Notes under the pieces: generated by a model
Told to the model about the DNA's origin: nothing
The model's input: only the letters and a program-made list of their open reading frames with translations
The model's database searches: none
From: Felixounavirus LF110P2
Length of the DNA: 64,000 nucleotides
Sequence record: OZ035782.1
Direction: 5' to 3' (one strand)
Made by a program: the position numbers and the translations under genes
Part shown: piece by piece, positions 11,288 to 25,055 of the stretch
Layout: each line of letters starts with the position of its first letter
Numbering within the stretch: the first letter of the stretch is position 1

Positions 11288-19303
<8,016 letters not shown>

Positions 19304-19305
19304 TA

Positions 19306-20493
19306 ATGGCGGTAGGTGAAATTCAAATTAGTGCCTTGCCTCAAGCAGCCTTACCAATTGACCTTAGTGATATCTTCCATCTTAAGCAGGGTATTGAGGA
19401 TAAGAGATGTACTCTTGAGCAATTACTTGCTCCACACTCAAGCCTAAGAAATAACCCTCATGGTGTTACTAAAACACAAATTGGTTTAGATAATGTTATT
19501 AATGCTCTTCAGTTAGTTGCTGCAAATAACTTATCAGATGTTGTTAATGTAGCTGAGGCAAGAGCAAATCTACAGATTATGTCTTCAGAAGAGGTTAATA
19601 ACCTTGTTCAACAGCATATTCAGGACAAGAGCAACCCACACAATACAACTAAGGCACAGGTTGGTTTAAGTAATGTTCAGAACTGGACAACATCTAACCT
19701 TTATAATGAGGATGCAGATAAGTACGCTACAGCAAGAGCAGTAAATAACTTGTACAAGGCTGTTCAGGCTTCCTATCCAGTAGGTACTATCCATCTTTCC
19801 ATGAACTCTGCAAACCCTTCTACGTATTTAATTTGTGGAGGAACTTGGGAGTTAGTTTCAAAAGGTAGGGCATTGGTTGGTTATGACTCTGATACAAGAC
19901 CAGCAGGCTCTGTATTTGGTGCTTCAACTGTCACTTTGTCAGTTAATAACATGCCACAACACTCACACTCTGTGTCTCTTAGTGGTGGTGGTCATGCTCA
20001 TAATGCAACTGTGTCAATTTCAGCTTTTGACTATGGAACTAAGACTACCAACTCTTTTGACTATGGAACTAAGACCACTAACACAACTGGTAACCATAAC
20101 CATGTTGGTAGTGGGTCAACAAGTTCTGCTGGTGCTCATAACCACAGATTGACCTATGAATCAGGTGGTGGTTTATCGGAAAGACCTGCAATGGTTTGGT
20201 CTTCAAGGAATGACCAATCATGGTACTCAGCAGATGCTGTCTGTGAAGTAGCTGGTGCACACACCCACTCTTTTAGCGTTACCACTAACACAACTGGTAA
20301 CCATAATCATACGGTGGGTATTGGTGCTCATAGCCATACAGTTGGTATTGGTTCACACACACACAGTGGTACTGTGACAGTTTCTTCTTCTGAGCATACA
20401 CATAGTGGAAACACTAATAGTGTTGGTGGTGGACAAGCTTTCAACATTGAACAGCCATCCTTCGTACTGTATGTATGGCAGAGAACAGCTTAA
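19306..20493 (+). CDS. Tail fibre protein with C-terminal His-x-His repeat receptor-binding tip
   Basis: C-terminal third is rich in HxH motifs (GNHNH, GAHNH, GAHTHS, GSHTHS, SEHTHS), as in T4 gp12/gp37-type fibre tips; shares a C-terminal module with the next gene and ends ...WQRTA. Confidence 0.6.
   Translation: MAVGEIQISALPQAALPIDLSDIFHLKQGIEDKRCTLEQLLAPHSSLRNNPHGVTKTQIGLDNVINALQLVAANNLSDVVNVAEARANLQIMSSEEVNNLVQQHIQDKSNPHNTTKAQVGLSNVQNWTTSNLYNEDADKYATARAVNNLYKAVQASYPVGTIHLSMNSANPSTYLICGGTWELVSKGRALVGYDSDTRPAGSVFGASTVTLSVNNMPQHSHSVSLSGGGHAHNATVSISAFDYGTKTTNSFDYGTKTTNTTGNHNHVGSGSTSSAGAHNHRLTYESGGGLSERPAMVWSSRNDQSWYSADAVCEVAGAHTHSFSVTTNTTGNHNHTVGIGAHSHTVGIGSHTHSGTVTVSSSEHTHSGNTNSVGGGQAFNIEQPSFVLYVWQRTA
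20026..20085 (+). repeat. Perfect-length 30-bp tandem duplication inside tail fibre gene (encodes FDYGTKTTNx twice)
   Basis: TTTGACTATGGAACTAAGACTACCAACTCT followed by TTTGACTATGGAACTAAGACCACTAACACA (27/30 identical). Confidence 0.8.
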
Positions 20494-20539
20494 TTTCTTT
20501 ACAGGGGCTTTATAGCCCCTTTTAAGAGGAAAATTTATA

Positions 20540-22927
20540 ATGGCAGATTACAAATTGAGTGAATTAAACTCAATCGATACAATCCGTTCAGATGACCTTC
20601 TTCATGTCAGAGTTAAAAAGAGACCTGAAATGCTGGGCGATGAAGACCGTCGAATGACCTATCAAGACTTCTTAGCATCTTTTAAACTTGAAAGATTTGT
20701 CCAGATTGCTGGTAGCACTATGACTGGTGACTTAGGGATTGTTAAGTTACTTTATGGTGGTAAGGCAGTCTTTGACCCAACAGGCTCTTCTGAGATTACT
20801 ATTGGGGATGTTTTAAAGACTTTCAAAATCAACGCAAATGGCCTTAAACTAACTATTGCAGATGCTTCAAGGTCGGCAACTGTTTATCATACTCTGAATA
20901 AACCAAGTCCTAATGAACTTGGGATGAGAACTAATGAAGAGAATGATGCAAGATATGCAAGGCTTGCTGTAACAAATAACTTCAACATTAGGCAAGCAAT
21001 TGTAACTGATGGTGAGCAGTTAACCCTTAAGAAAGCAACTAATGCAGGAGCTTCATATATTCAGGGTAGAGATGCTAATAACCAGCAAACGTGGTATGTT
21101 GGACAGGGAAATGCAAACAACACTAATGTTTATCTGTACAATCATGCCACTGGCTCAATGTTAACCCTTGACGCAACAGCGTCATTTAACAAGACACTAA
21201 GAGTCATGGGTCAAGTTCAACCTTCTGATTTCTCTAACTTAGATGCTAGATATTTTACTCAGACAGTAGCTAATCAGAGATTTGCGCAGTTAGCTGCTAA
21301 TAACAATTTCACTGGGACTAACACGTTTAGCAGAAACCTACTTATCATCAGTGACAGTGCTGCTTTAAGGTTGAAAAATACTGTAGCAAATGCTGCACTA
21401 TACGTTAAAGCCGAAGCTAATGATGGTTCTGGTAAGTGGTATGTAGGAAATGGTGATAATACACCTGCTGTATTCATCAGCAACTATGTGTATGGTTCTT
21501 ATCTTAGACTTGACAATGGACATGTCGCAGTAAACAATAATTTTAGAATCACTGGTCAAGTTCAACCTTCTGATTGGTCTAACATTGATTCTCGATACAT
21601 TCCAGCAGCTACTTTGAGTAATCTCCCTAAACTTAATGTGGCAAACACTTTCGTGAATGTGCAGACTATCGTATCAAATAACGAAGGTGTAGTATTAAAA
21701 AACTTGACACAGGGGCAGCCACAATATATCCGTGGTGTTGATACTGCGAATGTATCTAGGTGGTGGGTAGGTGTAGGTGGCACAAATTCTACTGATGTAG
21801 CCTTAAACAACAGCTACTCTGGGACTCAAATTACTCTTATGCCTTCAGCGATTAAGGCTAATAAGAATCTAACCATCACTGGTCAAGTTCAACCTTCTGA
21901 TTGGTCTAACTTAGATGCTAGATATTTTGTTAAAACTCAGTTATTAAACCAATCTTTAATGACTGTCTCTGTAGATAACCTTGGAAACCCTTCAGGTTTT
22001 AATCTTGGATATTCAGGTTTTGTCAGAAACAATGCGGTTACTAGTGGACTGAAAGAATTGGCAATTCATGTTGCTCACTCTAATAAGACTGCTGCACATG
22101 CAAGAGGAATCTCTTTTGTGTATGGCTCAAATGGACTGGCAACATTTACCTATGCCTATGACAAAAATGGTGACTATGCCGGAGAAGCACAGATTTATAC
22201 AACTGATTTTAAACCAACCCCTTCAGATATTGGTGCATACACTAAAGCTGAAACTGACCAGAAGATTGCACAGGCAGTAAGTGACTCTACAGACCTTAAC
22301 AAAATCTATCCAGTAGGTATTGTAACGTGGTTTAACAGTAACGTTAACCCTAATACAGCACTTCCTGGTCTAACTTGGACGTACCTGAACAATGGTGTTG
22401 GGAGAACTATTAGAATTGCAGCAGCAAATGGTTCAGATGTTGCTACAACTGGTGGTTCAGATTCTGTGACGTTAGCTGTTGGTAACTTGCCATCACACAC
22501 CCATAGTTTCTCTGCTACCACTTCATCTTTTGATTATGGTACGAAGGGGACTAACAGTACGGGTGGTCACACTCACTCCGTAAGTGGTACAACAAGTGCT
22601 GCTGGTAACCACGCTCACCACTTAGGTCTGCTATTGGTTAATGGTGGTGATGCTCAGTACGGTTATACAACTGTTAGCAATAACAAGACGAGAACTCTTG
22701 ACTGGCTTGACAGAACTGATAACAAGTTCCCTAACACTAACACAACTGGTAACCATACACACACATGGTCTGGTACTACAAGTAACACTGGTGCTCACAC
22801 CCACTCTGTAGGTATTGGTGCTCACACCCATACAGTTAGTGGTAACACTGGTGGTACAGGTTCTGGTTCATCATTTAGTGTTACTAACCAGTTCTACAAG
22901 TTAATGGCTTGGGTGAGAACTGCTTAA
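20540..22927 (+). CDS. Long tail fibre protein with internal repeats and His-x-His C-terminal tip
   Basis: 795 aa; three copies of GQVQPSD(W/F)SN(L/I)D(A/S)RY spaced about 110 aa apart; C-terminus has the same SFDYGTKxTN + HTHS/NHAH/NHTH module as the upstream fibre and ends ...WVRTA. Confidence 0.65.
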
Positions 22928-23006: not shown

Positions 23007-23204
23007 ATGCCTACAATCCTAGCAATTCTTCTAAAAAATCTAGGTAGCTTCTTCTGGAAACTCATTTTATCCCTTCTAAGTGAATACATGATTGAGAAAG
23101 TGTTCTTTAAGCTTGCAAGATACCTTGCGAGTAAAACAGACACACCTATTGATGATGAGTTCGTAGATAACTTAGAAAAAGCTTTTAAGGGGGAGAATAA
23201 ATGA
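23007..23204 (+). CDS. Hypothetical small protein
   Basis: 65 aa ORF with RBS GAGGTG; amphipathic N-terminus. Confidence 0.25.
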   Translation: MPTILAILLKNLGSFFWKLILSLLSEYMIEKVFFKLARYLASKTDTPIDDEFVDNLEKAFKGENK

Positions 23205-23572
23205 AGTGGCTAGAGGAAGCTTTTAAAAATAATATTGGTGCAATTGTAGTTGGTATTTTTAGTGTTATTGGGATGTATACCACGATGCAAGTTTCAAGTG
23301 GTAAACAAGAAGTGTCTGTCACAACAAAGTTACAGCAGCTAGATAATTATTCCAAAAGTAACTATTCAGCTATTCGTGATTTACAGTCTGACATGAGACT
23401 GATTCAGCTAGGGATGGAGAACCAGAAAGTTCAGTTAGAGAATGTTAAGGGTGAAAACGCAAAACTTACTAAGACTCTCGATAAATTCTCTGACAGTGTG
23501 AACAATCTGGCTCAATCAGTATCAGCCTTGCAAGCTATTACTGAAAAGAACACAAAGAATACTGAAAGATAA
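23201..23572 (+). CDS. Membrane-anchored coiled-coil protein (function unknown; holin-like or fibre-associated)
   Basis: N-terminal hydrophobic helix IGAIVVGIFSVIGMY followed by heptad-like Q/L/N-rich sequence. Confidence 0.3.
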   Translation: MKWLEEAFKNNIGAIVVGIFSVIGMYTTMQVSSGKQEVSVTTKLQQLDNYSKSNYSAIRDLQSDMRLIQLGMENQKVQLENVKGENAKLTKTLDKFSDSVNNLAQSVSALQAITEKNTKNTER

Positions 23573-23579
23573 AATTTAA

Positions 23580-23605
23580 GGCTCCTTTTTACGGGAGCCT
23601 TTTTT
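23580..23605. terminator. Bidirectional intrinsic terminator between convergent modules
   Basis: GGCTCC ... GGAGCC hairpin followed by TTTTTT; sits between + strand structural genes and - strand thyA. Confidence 0.6.
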
Positions 23606-23608
23606 GTT

Positions 23609-24508
23609 TTACTTGCCTACTGACAAAGGTGCTTCAATCTTTCCTGCATGTTTGTAGTTGTTGATGCCACCAATAAAGTCACTTGCAGTAAGATGTTTTA
23701 AGTCACTTAAGGTGTTAAGTTGTACACCAATCTCAAAAGTAGGTGCATGGAACTCTTCATTGTTCATCAGTTCATAAACCTGCTTCATATGGTTCTGGTA
23801 AATCTGAGTATCTCCAAAGACACCTATCAAGTATCGTGGAGTGTATCCAGTCATCTTACAAAGAACTTCCAGAATAAAACCATAAGATGCAATATTAAAC
23901 GGGAGTCCTAAAAAGGTGTCTACTGAACGCTGATACCATTGCAAGTCAACTTCACCCTCATTAGTGATATAAATCTGAAACAGTACATGGCAAGGTGCTA
24001 AAGCCATCGAGTTAGCTGCAATATCTGCTGCATTCCAAGCATTAACAAGCATGTAACGGTCTGTGATATCACCTTTCATCTTCGTTACTAAGGTCTCTAA
24101 CTGGTCTACAACACAACCATTATGACCTTCAAAGTTTCTCCACTGAACCCCGTAGATTCTCCCACCTGCATCCTCTAACCAGTCTTGTTCAGAAGAATAG
24201 TTAGAGCTTAACCAGCGTTTAAAATCATCTGACCAGATAGTCCAGCGTTCCCCATCATTTTCACCCCAAGTTCGATAACGAAGTTCACCAAGTTTATTCT
24301 CACCATTCAGGAACCATAAAGCTTCCCCAATAACTTGCCTTGTAAACACCTGTTTAGATGTTAATAGTGGGAAACCAGTACGCATATCAAAACGAAACTG
24401 TGGTGGAGCAAATGCAGAGATAACATCTCCAGTTCGTGTAGTACGCAGTTCACCAACGGATAAAACATGATTCAGGATATTTTTGTAACTCAAATCAGCT
24501 TGTGACAT
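23609..24508 (-). CDS. thyA: Thymidylate synthase
   Basis: Active-site region ...LAPCHVLFQIY... and ...DTFLGLPFNIASY... are diagnostic ThyA motifs. Confidence 0.85.
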   Translation of the reverse strand: MSQADLSYKNILNHVLSVGELRTTRTGDVISAFAPPQFRFDMRTGFPLLTSKQVFTRQVIGEALWFLNGENKLGELRYRTWGENDGERWTIWSDDFKRWLSSNYSSEQDWLEDAGGRIYGVQWRNFEGHNGCVVDQLETLVTKMKGDITDRYMLVNAWNAADIAANSMALAPCHVLFQIYITNEGEVDLQWYQRSVDTFLGLPFNIASYGFILEVLCKMTGYTPRYLIGVFGDTQIYQNHMKQVYELMNNEEFHAPTFEIGVQLNTLSDLKHLTASDFIGGINNYKHAGKIEAPLSVGK

Positions 24509-24509
24509 A

Positions 24510-25055
24510 TCAAAAGTGCCCTTTTACTTGTGGAACATAAATCTCAAAGGTTGCTTTACCATCATCTGAGGGTCTTGACTGTACCTTTGCAAATACATGG
24601 CTATCATACAGTTTATCGAAGAAGTTTTCAAAAGGTAAATACACAGTGGCCTCTTCAGTAACTTTATGGAAAACTGTATGGAAAACTACACCAGCATACG
24701 GCAAAGCATTGACAAGAACACCTGCACCACCAATTACAAAGATATCTTCATCAATAGAGCTATCAAGGTACTTCAAAAATGCTCCAAAGGACTCTTTGCT
24801 GGCCTTAGCATACATTACATCTTCTTTACCAAAGTCTATACCAAAATATGGCACAGAGTTTGTTAAGATAAGGTTTTCACGTTCTGGTAAAGGCTTACTA
24901 CCCAGAGTCTTAAAAGTCTCATTACCCATCACTACTAAGTTATTTTTAGTGAGTCTCTTAAACTCTTGCATGTCCTGTTTATGTCGAGGCCACGGCATAC
25001 CAGTTGGAGTACCAAACTCACCATTTTCACCACTTGCAAAGATTAATTTAATCAT
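24510..25055 (-). CDS. Dihydrofolate reductase
   Basis: N-terminal IFASGENGEFG...MPWP... pattern and 181 aa size are typical of DHFR; adjacent to thyA. Confidence 0.7.
   Translation of the reverse strand: MIKLIFASGENGEFGTPTGMPWPRHKQDMQEFKRLTKNNLVVMGNETFKTLGSKPLPERENLILTNSVPYFGIDFGKEDVMYAKASKESFGAFLKYLDSSIDEDIFVIGGAGVLVNALPYAGVVFHTVFHKVTEEATVYLPFENFFDKLYDSHVFAKVQSRPSDDGKATFEIYVPQVKGHF

What the first reader, a model, noticed from the sequence alone, without database searches (positions are those of the whole stretch)
19306..22927. Two tail fibre genes sharing a His-x-His C-terminal module, with internal repeats and a 30-bp tandem duplication
Both fibres end in a module with FDYGTK(T/G)TN followed by multiple HxH motifs (GNHNH, GAHTHS, GNHAH and others) and a final W(Q/V)RTA, pointing to module exchange between fibre genes and a metal-coordinating receptor-binding tip of the T4 gp12/gp37 type. 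The short fibre has an exact-length 30-bp tandem duplication (20026-20085), a likely recent slipped-strand event at a host-range determinant. The long fibre has three spaced copies of [15 protein letters not shown], suggesting a repeated domain.
Basis: partly seen in the sequence, partly recalled or inferred. Interest (0 to 1): 0.45.

Follow-up and report, generated by a model that had tools for sequence, protein, structure and literature searches.

The report
Felixounavirus short and long tail fibres
These are the two ordinary tail-fibre genes of a Felix O1-like coliphage, each ending in a T4 gp37-type histidine-rich receptor-binding needle that has already been described for this phage genus, and the 30-bp "duplication" is an old, conserved building block of that needle rather than a recent slip.

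Summary
The window is the first 64 kb of Felixounavirus LF110P2. ORF 19306-20493 (395 aa) and ORF 20540-22927 (795 aa) are its short (STF) and long (LTF) tail fibres. They follow the baseplate wedge genes.

Both C-termini match the T4 gp37 tip crystal structure 2XGF (E 8e-27 and 9e-21), which has a collar, a needle with His-x-His iron sites, and a head. The STF has 9 HxH motifs and the LTF has 6. This architecture was reported for VpaE1 (2015) and for Bas63 and Sf14 (cryo-EM, 2025), so it is already known.

Two points need correcting:
- **Where the receptor-binding part lies.** It is the hypervariable segment between the ascending and descending HxH arms (STF aa ~281-316, LTF aa ~694-736), not the C-terminal end.
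- **The 30-bp tandem repeat (20026-20085, 26/30 nt).** It is not recent. All 29 relatives carry 2-4 FDYGxKxTx units at this position, and T4 gp37 has two.

The three [15 protein letters not shown] copies are conserved connectors between repeated domains (Pfam gp37_trimer x3).

Module exchange is real, but mostly between genomes. LTF nt 22521-22836 is 85% identical to gp37 of the T4-like phage AV122.

The parts
16672..18141 (+). Baseplate wedge protein, 489 aa, Baseplate_J-like. It matches Bas63 'wedge 2' (gp23), the STF attachment site.
   Evidence: Pfam Baseplate_J, E 5e-16. PHROG 6. Same length as Bas63 wedge 2, 489 residues (PMC12609058).
18144..19001 (+). Baseplate wedge protein, 285 aa. 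It matches Bas63 'wedge 1' (gp24).
   Evidence: PHROG 4017, full length, E 1e-175. Pfam DUF2612. Same length as Bas63 wedge 1, 285 residues.
19001..19303 (+). 100-aa protein, probably the LTF platform (Bas63 gp25; that paper calls it a T4 gp9 homologue).
   Evidence: Position between wedge 1 and the STF, as in the Bas63 gene order gp23-gp27. PHROG 4141 is of unknown function. The assignment is inferred from synteny only.
19306..20493 (+). Short tail fibre gene (STF, 395 aa).
   Evidence: ORF. PHROG 2097, E 1e-138. Pfam Gp10_C, 69 bits. 2XGF, E 8e-27.
19453..19683 (+). STF shaft carrying two copies of the motif NPHxxTKxQxGLxNVxN (aa 50-66 and 110-126).
   Evidence: Regex search. Many PHROG tail-fibre families match aa 36-134. 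[quoted passage not shown]
19741..19959 (+). STF collar domain (aa ~146-218).
   Evidence: Pfam Gp10_C matches aa 154-261. T4 gp10 chains 2FKK and 5HX2 match aa 143-220. 2XGF alignment.
19960..20145 (+). STF ascending needle arm (aa 219-280). It holds HxH at 219, 230, 264 and 278, plus two FDYGxKxTx units.
20026..20085 (+). The 30-bp x 2 tandem repeat, which encodes two FDYGTKTTN(S/T) needle units (aa 241-260).
   Evidence: TRF. Sequence. Conserved in 29 of 29 relatives with 2-4 copies. T4 gp37 has TDLGTKTTSS followed by [10 protein letters not shown] at the aligned position.
20146..20253 (+). STF head (receptor-binding tip) domain, aa ~281-316, hypervariable.
   Evidence: Column identity across relatives is 0.19, against 0.8-0.97 in the flanks. 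It aligns with the T4 gp37 tip subdomain, residues 932-959 (PMC6957217).
20254..20490 (+). STF descending needle arm (HxH at 319, 333, 342, 351 and 364) and the C-terminal strand that returns to the collar (...FVLYVWQRTA).
   Evidence: By analogy, T4 residues 960-1009 form the stem and 1010-1026 return to domain D10.
20540..22927 (+). Long tail fibre gene (LTF, 795 aa).
   Evidence: ORF. PHROG 4277, full length, 1259 bits. Pfam gp37_trimer, 220 bits, 3 stretches. 2XGF, E 9e-21.
20687..22255 (+). Five tandem shaft domains: U1 aa 50-139, U2 140-238, U3 239-352, U4 353-462, U5 463-572. U2-U4 are clearly paralogous.
   Evidence: U2/U3/U4 are 37-46% identical, E 1e-17 to 1e-25. A profile of the unit hits the T7 gp17 fibre (4A0T, 4A0U, 7BOZ) at E ~2e-7. 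Five beta-helix repeats are reported for the Bas63 LTF. U1 and U5 are assigned from the alignment and the paper; they are not significant by BLAST.
21209..21253 (+). Connector copy 1: [15 protein letters not shown] (aa 224-238).
   Evidence: Conserved at 0.89, while the flanking domains are at 0.3-0.45.
21554..21598 (+). Connector copy 2: [15 protein letters not shown] (aa 339-353).
21881..21925 (+). Connector copy 3: [15 protein letters not shown] (aa 448-462).
22295..22495 (+). LTF collar domain (aa ~586-652).
   Evidence: Pfam Gp10_C matches aa 587-702 at 24.7 bits, just under the 27-bit cut-off. It aligns with the STF collar.
22521..22836 (+). LTF needle-plus-head cassette (aa 661-766) shared with a T4-like phage. 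Within it, aa ~694-736 form the hypervariable head.
   Evidence: 85% nt identity over 316 nt (E 7e-102) and 88% aa identity over 109 aa to gp37 of Tequatrovirus AV122. Column identity among relatives is 0.17-0.27 across aa 691-735.
22838..22924 (+). LTF C-terminal strand returning to the collar (...[11 protein letters not shown]). It is conserved.
   Evidence: Column identity 0.82-0.88. Aligned with the STF C-terminus.
23578..23601 (.). Bidirectional terminator-like hairpin. It closes the baseplate/fibre gene block after two small ORFs.

Best explanation
The region encodes the two baseplate-attached fibres of a Felix O1-like myovirus, Felixounavirus LF110P2.

**Overall build.** Each fibre is presumably a homotrimer with three parts: an N-terminal baseplate-binding segment, a shaft, and a C-terminal T4 gp37-type receptor-binding module.
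- The STF shaft carries short helical motifs.
- The LTF shaft carries five repeated domains joined by conserved [12 protein letters not shown] connectors.

**How the receptor-binding module is arranged.** The chain leaves a collar domain and runs out along an 'ascending' arm. It forms a small head at the far end, then returns along a 'descending' arm to the collar. In the trimer this gives a six-stranded needle. Its core is held by metal ions (Fe2+ in T4), each bound by the six histidines of three HxH motifs.
- The STF offers 9 such motifs. Seven align one-to-one with T4's seven iron sites and two are extra, near the collar.
- The LTF offers 6. Five are T4-equivalent and one is extra.

**Two kinds of stem unit.** The stem has 14-residue units with HxH on both arms. 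It also has collar-proximal units in which a 10-residue FDYGxKxTx on the ascending arm lies opposite a 9-residue GIGxHxHxV on the descending arm. It is an ancient, conserved feature that sets needle length.

**Where specificity lies.** Receptor specificity, most likely for LPS core sugars, resides in the hypervariable heads (STF aa ~281-316, LTF aa ~694-736). The two heads differ, so the phage probably reads two different surface features.

**How host range changes.** It changes mainly by cassette replacement. Recombination in the conserved HxH/FDYG boxes and in the shaft connectors swaps heads and shaft domains between phages, including T4-like phages.

**Shown here:** the homology, the motif anatomy, the conservation pattern and the mosaic structure.

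**Inferred:** trimerisation, metal binding, the needle topology for this protein, the receptor identity, and recombination in the boxes as the mechanism.
For: **Identity of the phage.** 100% identical at the same coordinates to OZ035766.1, Felixounavirus LF110P2.

**Homology**
- 2XGF: E 8e-27 covering STF aa 146-367, and E 9e-21 covering LTF aa 651-782, with all seven T4 HxH motifs aligned in the STF.
- Pfam Gp10_C, gp37_trimer x3 and Phage_fiber.
- PHROG tail-fibre families along most or all of each protein.

**T4 domain limits and iron sites** come from PMC6957217.

**Published architecture for orthologues.** Bas63 gp26 and gp27 have a collar, needle and head with HxH motifs, and five beta-helix repeats. 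That paper also reports variable tips and variable repeat domains. VpaE1 gp74 and gp75 are both homologous to the T4 gp37 C-terminus.

**Conservation profile.** The heads sit at 0.17-0.19 identity against 0.8-0.97 in the flanks. The connectors are conserved while the shaft domains vary.

**Mosaicism.** Identity in 90-nt bins jumps between ~95-99% and ~45% independently for each shaft domain and each head among close relatives.

**Cross-family cassette.** LTF nt 22521-22836 is 85% identical to Tequatrovirus AV122 gp37.

**Needle-unit bookkeeping**
- Relative to the LTF, the STF has a 21-aa insertion on the ascending arm (GGHAH plus one FDYG unit) and a 20-aa insertion on the descending arm.
- The run of 9-spaced descending HxH motifs equals the number of FDYG units plus one. 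This holds in 28 LTFs, in 26 STFs by script and 4 more STFs (L019, L022-L024) by eye, and in T4 and AV122 gp37.

**Receptor.** Felixounaviruses depend on the LPS core. AV122, which carries the same head cassette, fails on waaC and waaR mutants.
Against: **Not tested here**
- No structure could be obtained. AlphaFold2 monomer models built from 2-3-row alignments were unusable (pLDDT 30 and 35).
- Trimer formation, metal sites and the pairing of FDYG units with descending HxH motifs are therefore inferred from sequence register and from T4.
- No receptor or host-range data exist for LF110P2 itself.

**Weak points in the evidence**
- The two extra STF HxH motifs (aa 219 and 364) have no T4 counterpart, so they may not bind metal.
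- The LTF collar scores just below Pfam's gathering threshold (24.7 against 27 bits).
- The genome has no gp38 homologue, so the T4 folding pathway does not transfer directly.
- By sequence, the shaft repeat unit hit T7 gp17. It did not hit T4 gp34, which the Bas63 paper names as the structural analogue.
Confidence: 0.88

Rival explanations
1. The 30-bp tandem repeat is a recent slipped-strand duplication that is polymorphic and tunes host range.
For: - The two copies are adjacent, in frame, exactly 30 bp long and 26/30 identical. That is the highest copy-to-copy identity among the relatives, whose values range from 17 to 26.
- Copy number does differ between lineages of the genus (2, 3 or 4) and between T4 (2) and AV122 gp37 (3).
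Against: - Two or more units are present at the same position in all 29 relatives, down to 61% protein identity, and in T4 gp37.
- Seven of nine shared codons is not significantly more than codon bias predicts (expected 4.3, P=0.066).
- The units sit in the conserved stem, not the variable head.
- Copy number co-varies with the number of 9-spaced HxH motifs on the opposite arm. A one-sided slip would therefore put the hairpin out of register.
- No close relative (>=97% STF identity, L001-L004) differs in copy number.
Confidence: 0.04
2. The shorter protein is a T4 gp12-like short tail fibre: a baseplate-folded, zinc-binding fibre for irreversible LPS binding. It would be functionally distinct from a gp37-type adhesin.
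For: - It is the shorter of two fibres, it is encoded directly after the baseplate wedge genes, and it has the collar fold shared by gp10, gp11, gp12 and gp37.
- The Bas63 authors call the orthologue 'STF'.
Against: - No gp12 chain matched at E<=1. The best match is the gp37 tip across collar, needle and head.
- It has nine HxH motifs of the gp37 kind.
- In Bas63 the orthologue is a 430-Angstrom fibre lying along the sheath, not folded under the baseplate.
- The Sf14 authors call both fibres long tail fibres.
Confidence: 0.05
3. The shared C-terminal module reflects a recent transfer between the two fibre genes of this genome (gene conversion), so both fibres bind the same receptor.
For: - Such intragenomic sharing does occur in relatives. 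In L020, STF nt 748-947 is 91% identical to its own LTF tip. L013, L014 and L016 show 76-81%.
Against: - In this window the two modules are only 35% identical as protein.
- DNA matches are confined to HxH-box stretches of 33-105 nt at 70-88%.
- The two heads are unrelated in sequence and length.
Confidence: 0.03

Closest known systems
Felixounavirus short and long tail fibres: Bas63 gp26/gp27 (PMC12609058), VpaE1 gp74/gp75 (PMC4690856), and the Mooglevirus proteins Sf14 gp52/gp53 (PMC11821841)
   Same: - Same genus and the same gene order after wedge proteins of 489 aa, 285 aa and ~100 aa.
- Same two-fibre arrangement.
- Both fibres carry a gp37-like collar, needle and head with HxH motifs.
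- The LTF has five repeated shaft domains.
- The tips and shaft domains are the variable parts (compared).
   Different: - This STF has 9 HxH motifs and 2 FDYG units. The paper reports 7 HxH for the Bas63 STF. The 382-aa STFs of relatives L019 and L022-L024 have 7 HxH and 3 FDYG units.
- The LTF head-proximal motif here is HxHH (H691, H693, H694). In Bas63 it is HHxH.
- The head cassettes differ.
T4 gp37 receptor-binding tip (PDB 2XGF; domains D10 and D11)
   Same: - Collar, six-stranded HxH needle and head, with significant sequence homology (E 8e-27 and 9e-21).
- All seven T4 iron-site motifs align in the STF.
- The FDYGTK units are shared.
- A hydrophobic C-terminal strand is present...YIVRLA in T4-type gp37, against ...YVWQRTA and ...AWVRTA here.
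   Different: - The module is attached to a much shorter, single-protein fibre, not the four-protein gp34-gp37 fibre.
- No gp38 homologue is present in the genome.
- The number of HxH motifs differs (9 and 6, against 7).
- The head sequences differ from T4's. The LTF head instead matches the T4-like phage AV122.
T7 gp17 fibre, C-terminal region (PDB 4A0T/4A0U/7BOZ), and Pfam PF20744 gp37_trimer
   Same: - The LTF shaft repeat unit matches PF20744 three times (220 bits).
- As a profile, the unit matches T7 gp17 residues ~368-438 at E ~2e-7.
   Different: - The domain occurs here as a tandem array of five, with conserved [12 protein letters not shown] linkers.
- T7 has a single copy, followed by a different tip domain.
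'His box' recombination and duplication in T-even gp37 (Tetart, Krisch and co-workers, J Mol Biol 1996 and 1998; cited from my own knowledge, not retrieved here)
   Same: - Conserved GxHxH-coding boxes flank variable adhesin segments.
- The boundaries of the cassette shared with AV122 fall within the FDYG/HxH boxes.
   Different: No duplication of a head segment is seen in this window. The recombination mechanism is inferred from the mosaic patterns only.

Membership tests
T4 gp37-type receptor-binding tip (collar-needle-head, PDB 2XGF) | Significant sequence homology to the crystallised gp37 fragment across collar, stem and tip. | tested here: met
   phmmer against PDB: STF aa 146-367 against 2XGF residues 18-228, E 7.7e-27. 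LTF aa 651-782, E 9e-21.
T4 gp37-type receptor-binding tip (collar-needle-head, PDB 2XGF) | Collar domain of the gp10/gp11/gp12/gp37 fold preceding the needle. | tested here: met
   Pfam Gp10_C: STF 69.4 bits (cut-off 27). LTF 24.7 bits, slightly below the cut-off, but its collar aligns with the STF collar. gp10 chains 2FKK and 5HX2 match the STF at E 2e-5.
T4 gp37-type receptor-binding tip (collar-needle-head, PDB 2XGF) | HxH motifs on both an ascending and a descending arm, separated by a head insert. | tested here: met
   STF has 4 ascending and 5 descending motifs around aa 281-316. LTF has 3 and 3 around aa 694-736.
T4 gp37-type receptor-binding tip (collar-needle-head, PDB 2XGF) | Trimeric six-stranded needle with octahedrally His-coordinated iron ions. 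| not testable with these tools
   Only monomer AlphaFold2 without ions was available, and both models were unusable (pLDDT 30 and 35).
T4 gp37-type receptor-binding tip (collar-needle-head, PDB 2XGF) | Folding depends on a gp38 chaperone encoded just downstream. | tested here: not met
   tblastn of AV122 gp38 against the whole 87-kb LF110P2 genome gave a best E of 0.33. The downstream ORFs (65 and 123 aa) have no informative family match. This is a difference in assembly, not in fold.
Felixounavirus STF/LTF pair (Bas63 gp26/gp27) | Two consecutive fibre genes directly after wedge 2 (489 aa), wedge 1 (285 aa) and a ~100-aa platform gene, in a Felixounavirus genome. | tested here: met
   ORF order and lengths compared with the paper. 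Genome identity to Felixounavirus LF110P2. 29 syntenic relatives.
Felixounavirus STF/LTF pair (Bas63 gp26/gp27) | LTF with five repeated shaft domains; variability concentrated in the tips and shaft domains. | tested here: met
   Five units delimited, three of them significant paralogues. Conservation profile. No change in unit number among relatives.
T4 gp12 short tail fibre | Sequence homology to the gp12 shaft and its C-terminal receptor-binding domain. | tested here: not met
   No gp12 chain among the PDB matches at E<=1 for either protein. Only the generic collar is shared.
Pfam PF20744 gp37_trimer repeat | Score above the gathering threshold. | tested here: met
   220.4 bits against a 21.7-bit cut-off, in 3 stretches; the best is aa 383-467.

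The most novel reading that the evidence does not exclude
The gp37-type needle may be built from two interchangeable kinds of paired unit. Its length would then change only by coordinated gain or loss on both arms. Each 10-residue FDYGxKxTx unit on the ascending arm is matched by one extra 9-residue GIGxHxHxV unit on the descending arm. This 'n+1' rule held in all 60 sequences examined.

The whole needle-plus-head insert also moves as a cassette between T4-like gp37, which depends on the gp38 chaperone, and Felixounavirus fibres, whose genomes lack gp38. That would imply this needle can fold without gp38, or with an unrecognised chaperone.

Neither point was stated in the papers I read. Both rest on sequence bookkeeping only.
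Probability: 0.45. Interest if true: 0.3.

Novelty: already known. Interest (0 to 1): 0.15.

Why it matters
The practical value is for annotation and engineering. OZ035766.1 carries no annotation. This analysis names its two receptor-binding proteins and marks where the specificity-determining heads lie: nt 20146-20253 in the STF and about nt 22619-22747 in the LTF.

It also shows that the conserved HxH/FDYG boxes and the [12 protein letters not shown] connectors bound the natural swap units. Those are sensible junctions for retargeting therapeutic Felix O1-like phages.

It adds nothing fundamentally new about phage biology. The architecture, its T4 homology and its variability pattern are already published.

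Tried and rejected
**AlphaFold2 monomer predictions.** I tried the STF tip (alignment A2, 2 rows) and LTF unit U4 (A3, 3 rows). Mean pLDDT was 29.8 and 34.6, so the models were unusable and no fold search was run.

**phmmer of the last 51 STF residues against PDB.** No hit. The C-terminal strand was compared with T4-type gp37 by eye only.

**Bartual et al. 2010 (PMC2996694).** It is not held in the library. T4 domain limits were taken from PMC6957217 instead.

**A third HxH fibre gene or a gp38 homologue in the remaining 23 kb of the genome.** None was found.

**Profile of the shaft repeat against PDB.** It did not recover T4 gp34 (5NXH), the analogue named in the Bas63 paper. It recovered only T7 gp17 and, weakly, Mu protein S.

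**Sequencing artefact as an explanation for the tandem repeat.** Rejected, because the repeat occurs in many independent assemblies.

**Promoter scan.** It found no more sites than in shuffled sequence (14 against 12.1 +/- 3.6). No internal regulation is claimed.

Full report
**1. What the window is**

The finding's 3,622 bases are 100% identical, at the same coordinates, to Felixounavirus LF110P2 (OZ035766.1, 87,144 bp, unannotated). 244 phage records match, almost all of them Felix O1-like phages of Escherichia, Salmonella, Citrobacter and Shigella.

The finding spans two ORFs exactly: 19306-20493 (395 aa) and 20540-22927 (795 aa), both on the + strand. Upstream lie three genes:
- a Baseplate_J-like protein of 489 aa,
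- a 285-aa baseplate protein,
- a 100-aa protein.

Downstream are two small ORFs and a bidirectional terminator-like hairpin at 23578-23601. After that come convergent thymidylate synthase and DHFR genes.

**2. Check of the observation**

- **Shared module.** The two proteins share a C-terminal module: BLASTP 35% identity over 233 columns, E 6e-22.
- **HxH motifs.** There are 9 in the short protein and 6 in the long one. All the quoted strings, and the WQRTA and WVRTA endings, are there.
- **Tandem repeat.** Tandem Repeats Finder reports a 30-nt period, 2.0 copies, 93% matches. In codon register (20026-20055 against 20056-20085) the copies are 26/30 identical and encode FDYGTKTTNS followed by FDYGTKTTNT.
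- **Connector peptide.** The three GQVQPSD(W/F)SN(L/I)D(A/S)RY copies lie at aa 224-238, 339-353 and 448-462.

**3. What the genes are**

PHROG tail-fibre families match along most or all of each protein (phrog_2097 at E 1e-138; phrog_4277 at 1259 bits).

Pfam gives these matches:
- Gp10_C, the collar fold of T4 gp10/11/12/37, in both proteins. The STF scores 69 bits. The LTF scores 24.7 bits, just under the cut-off.
- Three copies of gp37_trimer in the long protein (220 bits).
- Phage_fiber, the His repeat.

Against solved structures, both proteins match the T4 gp37 tip (2XGF). The STF match covers aa 146-367 at E 7.7e-27, and the LTF match covers aa 651-782 at E 9e-21. No gp12 chain matched. 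Only gp10 collar chains matched in addition.

The published T4 domain limits are as follows (PMC6957217):
- D10/collar: residues 811-881 plus 1010-1026.
- Stem: residues 882-931 plus 960-1009.
- Tip: residues 932-959.
- Seven iron sites, including H929/H931.

Transferring these through the alignment puts the STF head at about aa 281-316 and the LTF head at about aa 694-736. The C-termini would return to the collar.

All seven T4 HxH motifs have aligned counterparts in the STF (H230, 264, 278, 319, 333, 342, 351). H219 and H364 are extra. The LTF keeps five T4-equivalent motifs and has one extra, H653.

**4. This is already in the literature**

- **VpaE1 (2015).** Both fibre proteins, gp74 and gp75, were reported as homologous to the T4 gp37 adhesin C-terminus (PMC4690856).
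- **Bas63 cryo-EM (2025).** The paper describes STF gp26 and LTF gp27, each with a collar, a six-stranded HxH needle and a head like T4 gp37. It also describes five beta-helix repeat domains in the LTF, and wedge proteins of 489 and 285 residues, the same lengths as here. It reports that the tips and, unexpectedly, the shaft repeat domains are the variable parts across the genus (PMC12609058).
- **Sf14.** The authors reach a similar picture and note the absence of a fibre chaperone (PMC11821841).

**5. The 30-bp repeat is old, not recent**

I fetched 29 related loci from IMG/VR, with STF identity of 61-100%. Every STF carries at least two FDYGxKxTx units at the same position. Four carry three units (L019, L022-L024) and three carry four (L025, L027, L029).

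T4 gp37 has TDLGTKTTSS followed by [10 protein letters not shown] at the aligned position. The T4-like AV122 gp37 has three units.

Several further points argue against a recent slip:
- Given identical peptides, 7 of 9 identical codons is not significantly more than codon usage predicts (expected 4.3, P=0.066).
- The units lie in a conserved part of the protein (column identity 0.87), not in the head (0.19).
- The STF/LTF alignment shows the STF has 21 extra residues on the ascending arm (GGHAH plus one FDYG unit) and 20 extra on the descending arm.
- The longest run of 9-spaced descending HxH motifs equals the FDYG count plus one. This held in 28 LTFs (1 unit, run of 2), in 26 STFs by script (2 units, run of 3; 4 units, run of 5) and in T4 gp37 (2 units, run of 3).
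- For the four 3-unit STFs the script mis-split the arms, so I counted by eye: the run is 4. AV122 gp37 also has 3 units and a run of 4.

I read the FDYG unit as the ascending-arm partner of a descending GIGxHxHxV unit. This is an inference from sequence register, not a structural result. If it is right, a one-sided slip would put the hairpin out of register.

**6. The repeated domain**

LTF units U2, U3 and U4 (aa 140-238, 239-352, 353-462) are 37-46% identical to each other, E 1e-17 to 1e-25. U1 and U5 are too diverged for BLAST, but they end in related connectors (...NEENDARY and ...[10 protein letters not shown]). That gives five units, as published.

A profile of the unit matches the T7 gp17 fibre at E ~2e-7 and Mu protein S at E 0.03. 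It does not match T4 gp34.

The connectors are conserved (0.74-0.89), while the domains between them are not (0.3-0.5). Unit number does not vary among relatives. U5 has a longer alternative form, about 59 aa longer.

**7. Module exchange**

Within this genome the two tips are old paralogues with unrelated heads. Among relatives the picture is strongly mosaic.
- Identity in 90-nt bins switches between about 95-99% and about 45%, independently for each shaft domain and each head.
- The LTF needle-plus-head (nt 22521-22836, aa 661-766) is 85% nt identical (316 nt, E 7e-102) and 88% aa identical to gp37 of Tequatrovirus AV122. Nothing else in the two proteins is related. The boundaries fall in the FDYG box and the last GIGAHTHTV box.
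- Relatives L005 and L007 carry an almost T4-identical needle and head in their LTF.
- In L020 the STF and LTF of one genome share 200 nt at 91%.

So exchange between fibre genes does happen in this genus. In this window the evidence is for exchange with other phages.

**8. Likely function**

Felixounaviruses use LPS. Bas63 depends on an intact core, and P10 uses LPS. AV122, which shares this LTF head, fails on waaC and waaR mutants. The LTF head therefore plausibly reads the outer LPS core. This is an inference, and nothing is known for the STF head.

No gp38 homologue and no third HxH fibre exist in the 87-kb genome.

**9. What failed**

The monomer AlphaFold2 models were unusable, so metal coordination and needle topology for these proteins remain inferred.

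**10. Verdict**

It is wrong on the recent slippage, on the gp12 comparison and on where the receptor-binding part lies. The feature is an ordinary, already-described member of a known kind, and interest is low. The paired-unit rule and the gp38-independent cassette are small leads, not established results.

Noticed in passing
window 22521-22836 (LTF aa 661-766); L031:3460-3775: The LTF needle-plus-head cassette is 85% nt and 88% aa identical to gp37 of the T4-like phage AV122. AV122 encodes a gp38 chaperone just downstream, whereas LF110P2 has no gp38 homologue anywhere in its genome (best tblastn E 0.33). How the same needle folds without gp38 is unexplained.
   Followed up: partly
L020:4748-4947 against the downstream LTF gene of L020; also L013, L014, L016: In some relatives the STF and LTF of one genome carry the same head cassette: 91% nt over 200 nt in L020, and 76-81% in L013, L014 and L016. 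This is real exchange between the two fibre genes.
   Followed up: partly
L005 and L007, LTF C-terminal module: These LTFs carry a needle and head almost identical to T4 gp37 (...[28 protein letters not shown]...NAAGNHSHTFSF...). L005 is an 88,403-bp contig, the same length as VpaE1, which infects only E. coli B strains.
   Followed up: partly
STF aa 219-369 (window 19960-20412) and all relatives: The number of FDYGxKxTx units on the ascending arm and the run of 9-spaced HxH motifs on the descending arm co-vary as n and n+1. This held in all 58 Felixounavirus fibres examined (4 of them counted by eye), plus T4 and AV122 gp37. It suggests paired needle-length units.
   Followed up: partly
window 19453-19503 and 19633-19683 (STF aa 50-66, 110-126): There are two copies of the motif NPHxxTKxQxGLxNVxN in the STF shaft. 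Many unrelated PHROG tail-protein families match this stretch, so it is a widespread fibre motif.
   Followed up: no
window 23007-23204 and 23201-23572: Two small overlapping ORFs (65 and 123 aa) follow the LTF before the terminator. Both have hydrophobic N-termini, and the second has a coiled-coil-like region (weak DivIC hit). They belong to PHROGs of unknown function. They sit where fibre chaperone genes lie in T4, P2 and Mu, but they could equally be lysis or membrane proteins.
   Followed up: partly
L012 and L016, LTF ORFs: The LTF ORF is truncated to 541 and 453 aa, with no collar or needle. This may be a frameshift, an assembly error or a real truncation. The Bas63 paper also flags some incomplete LTFs in the genus.
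   Followed up: no
LTF aa ~479-545 (window ~21975-22175) against L010, L011, L014, L015, L026, L027, L028: The fifth shaft domain (U5) exists in two alternative forms that differ by about 59 aa. The number of shaft domains stays at five.
   Followed up: partly
phage record LR597663.1 (VpaE1_ev78), hit H90: A phage named as an evolved VpaE1 carries an STF head 93% identical to this window's. L005, a contig of VpaE1's length, has a different STF head. This may be an experimental recombinant.
   Followed up: no
window 23609-24508 (-) and 24510-25055 (-): Thymidylate synthase and dihydrofolate reductase genes converge on the fibre operon at the bidirectional terminator 23578-23601.
   Followed up: no
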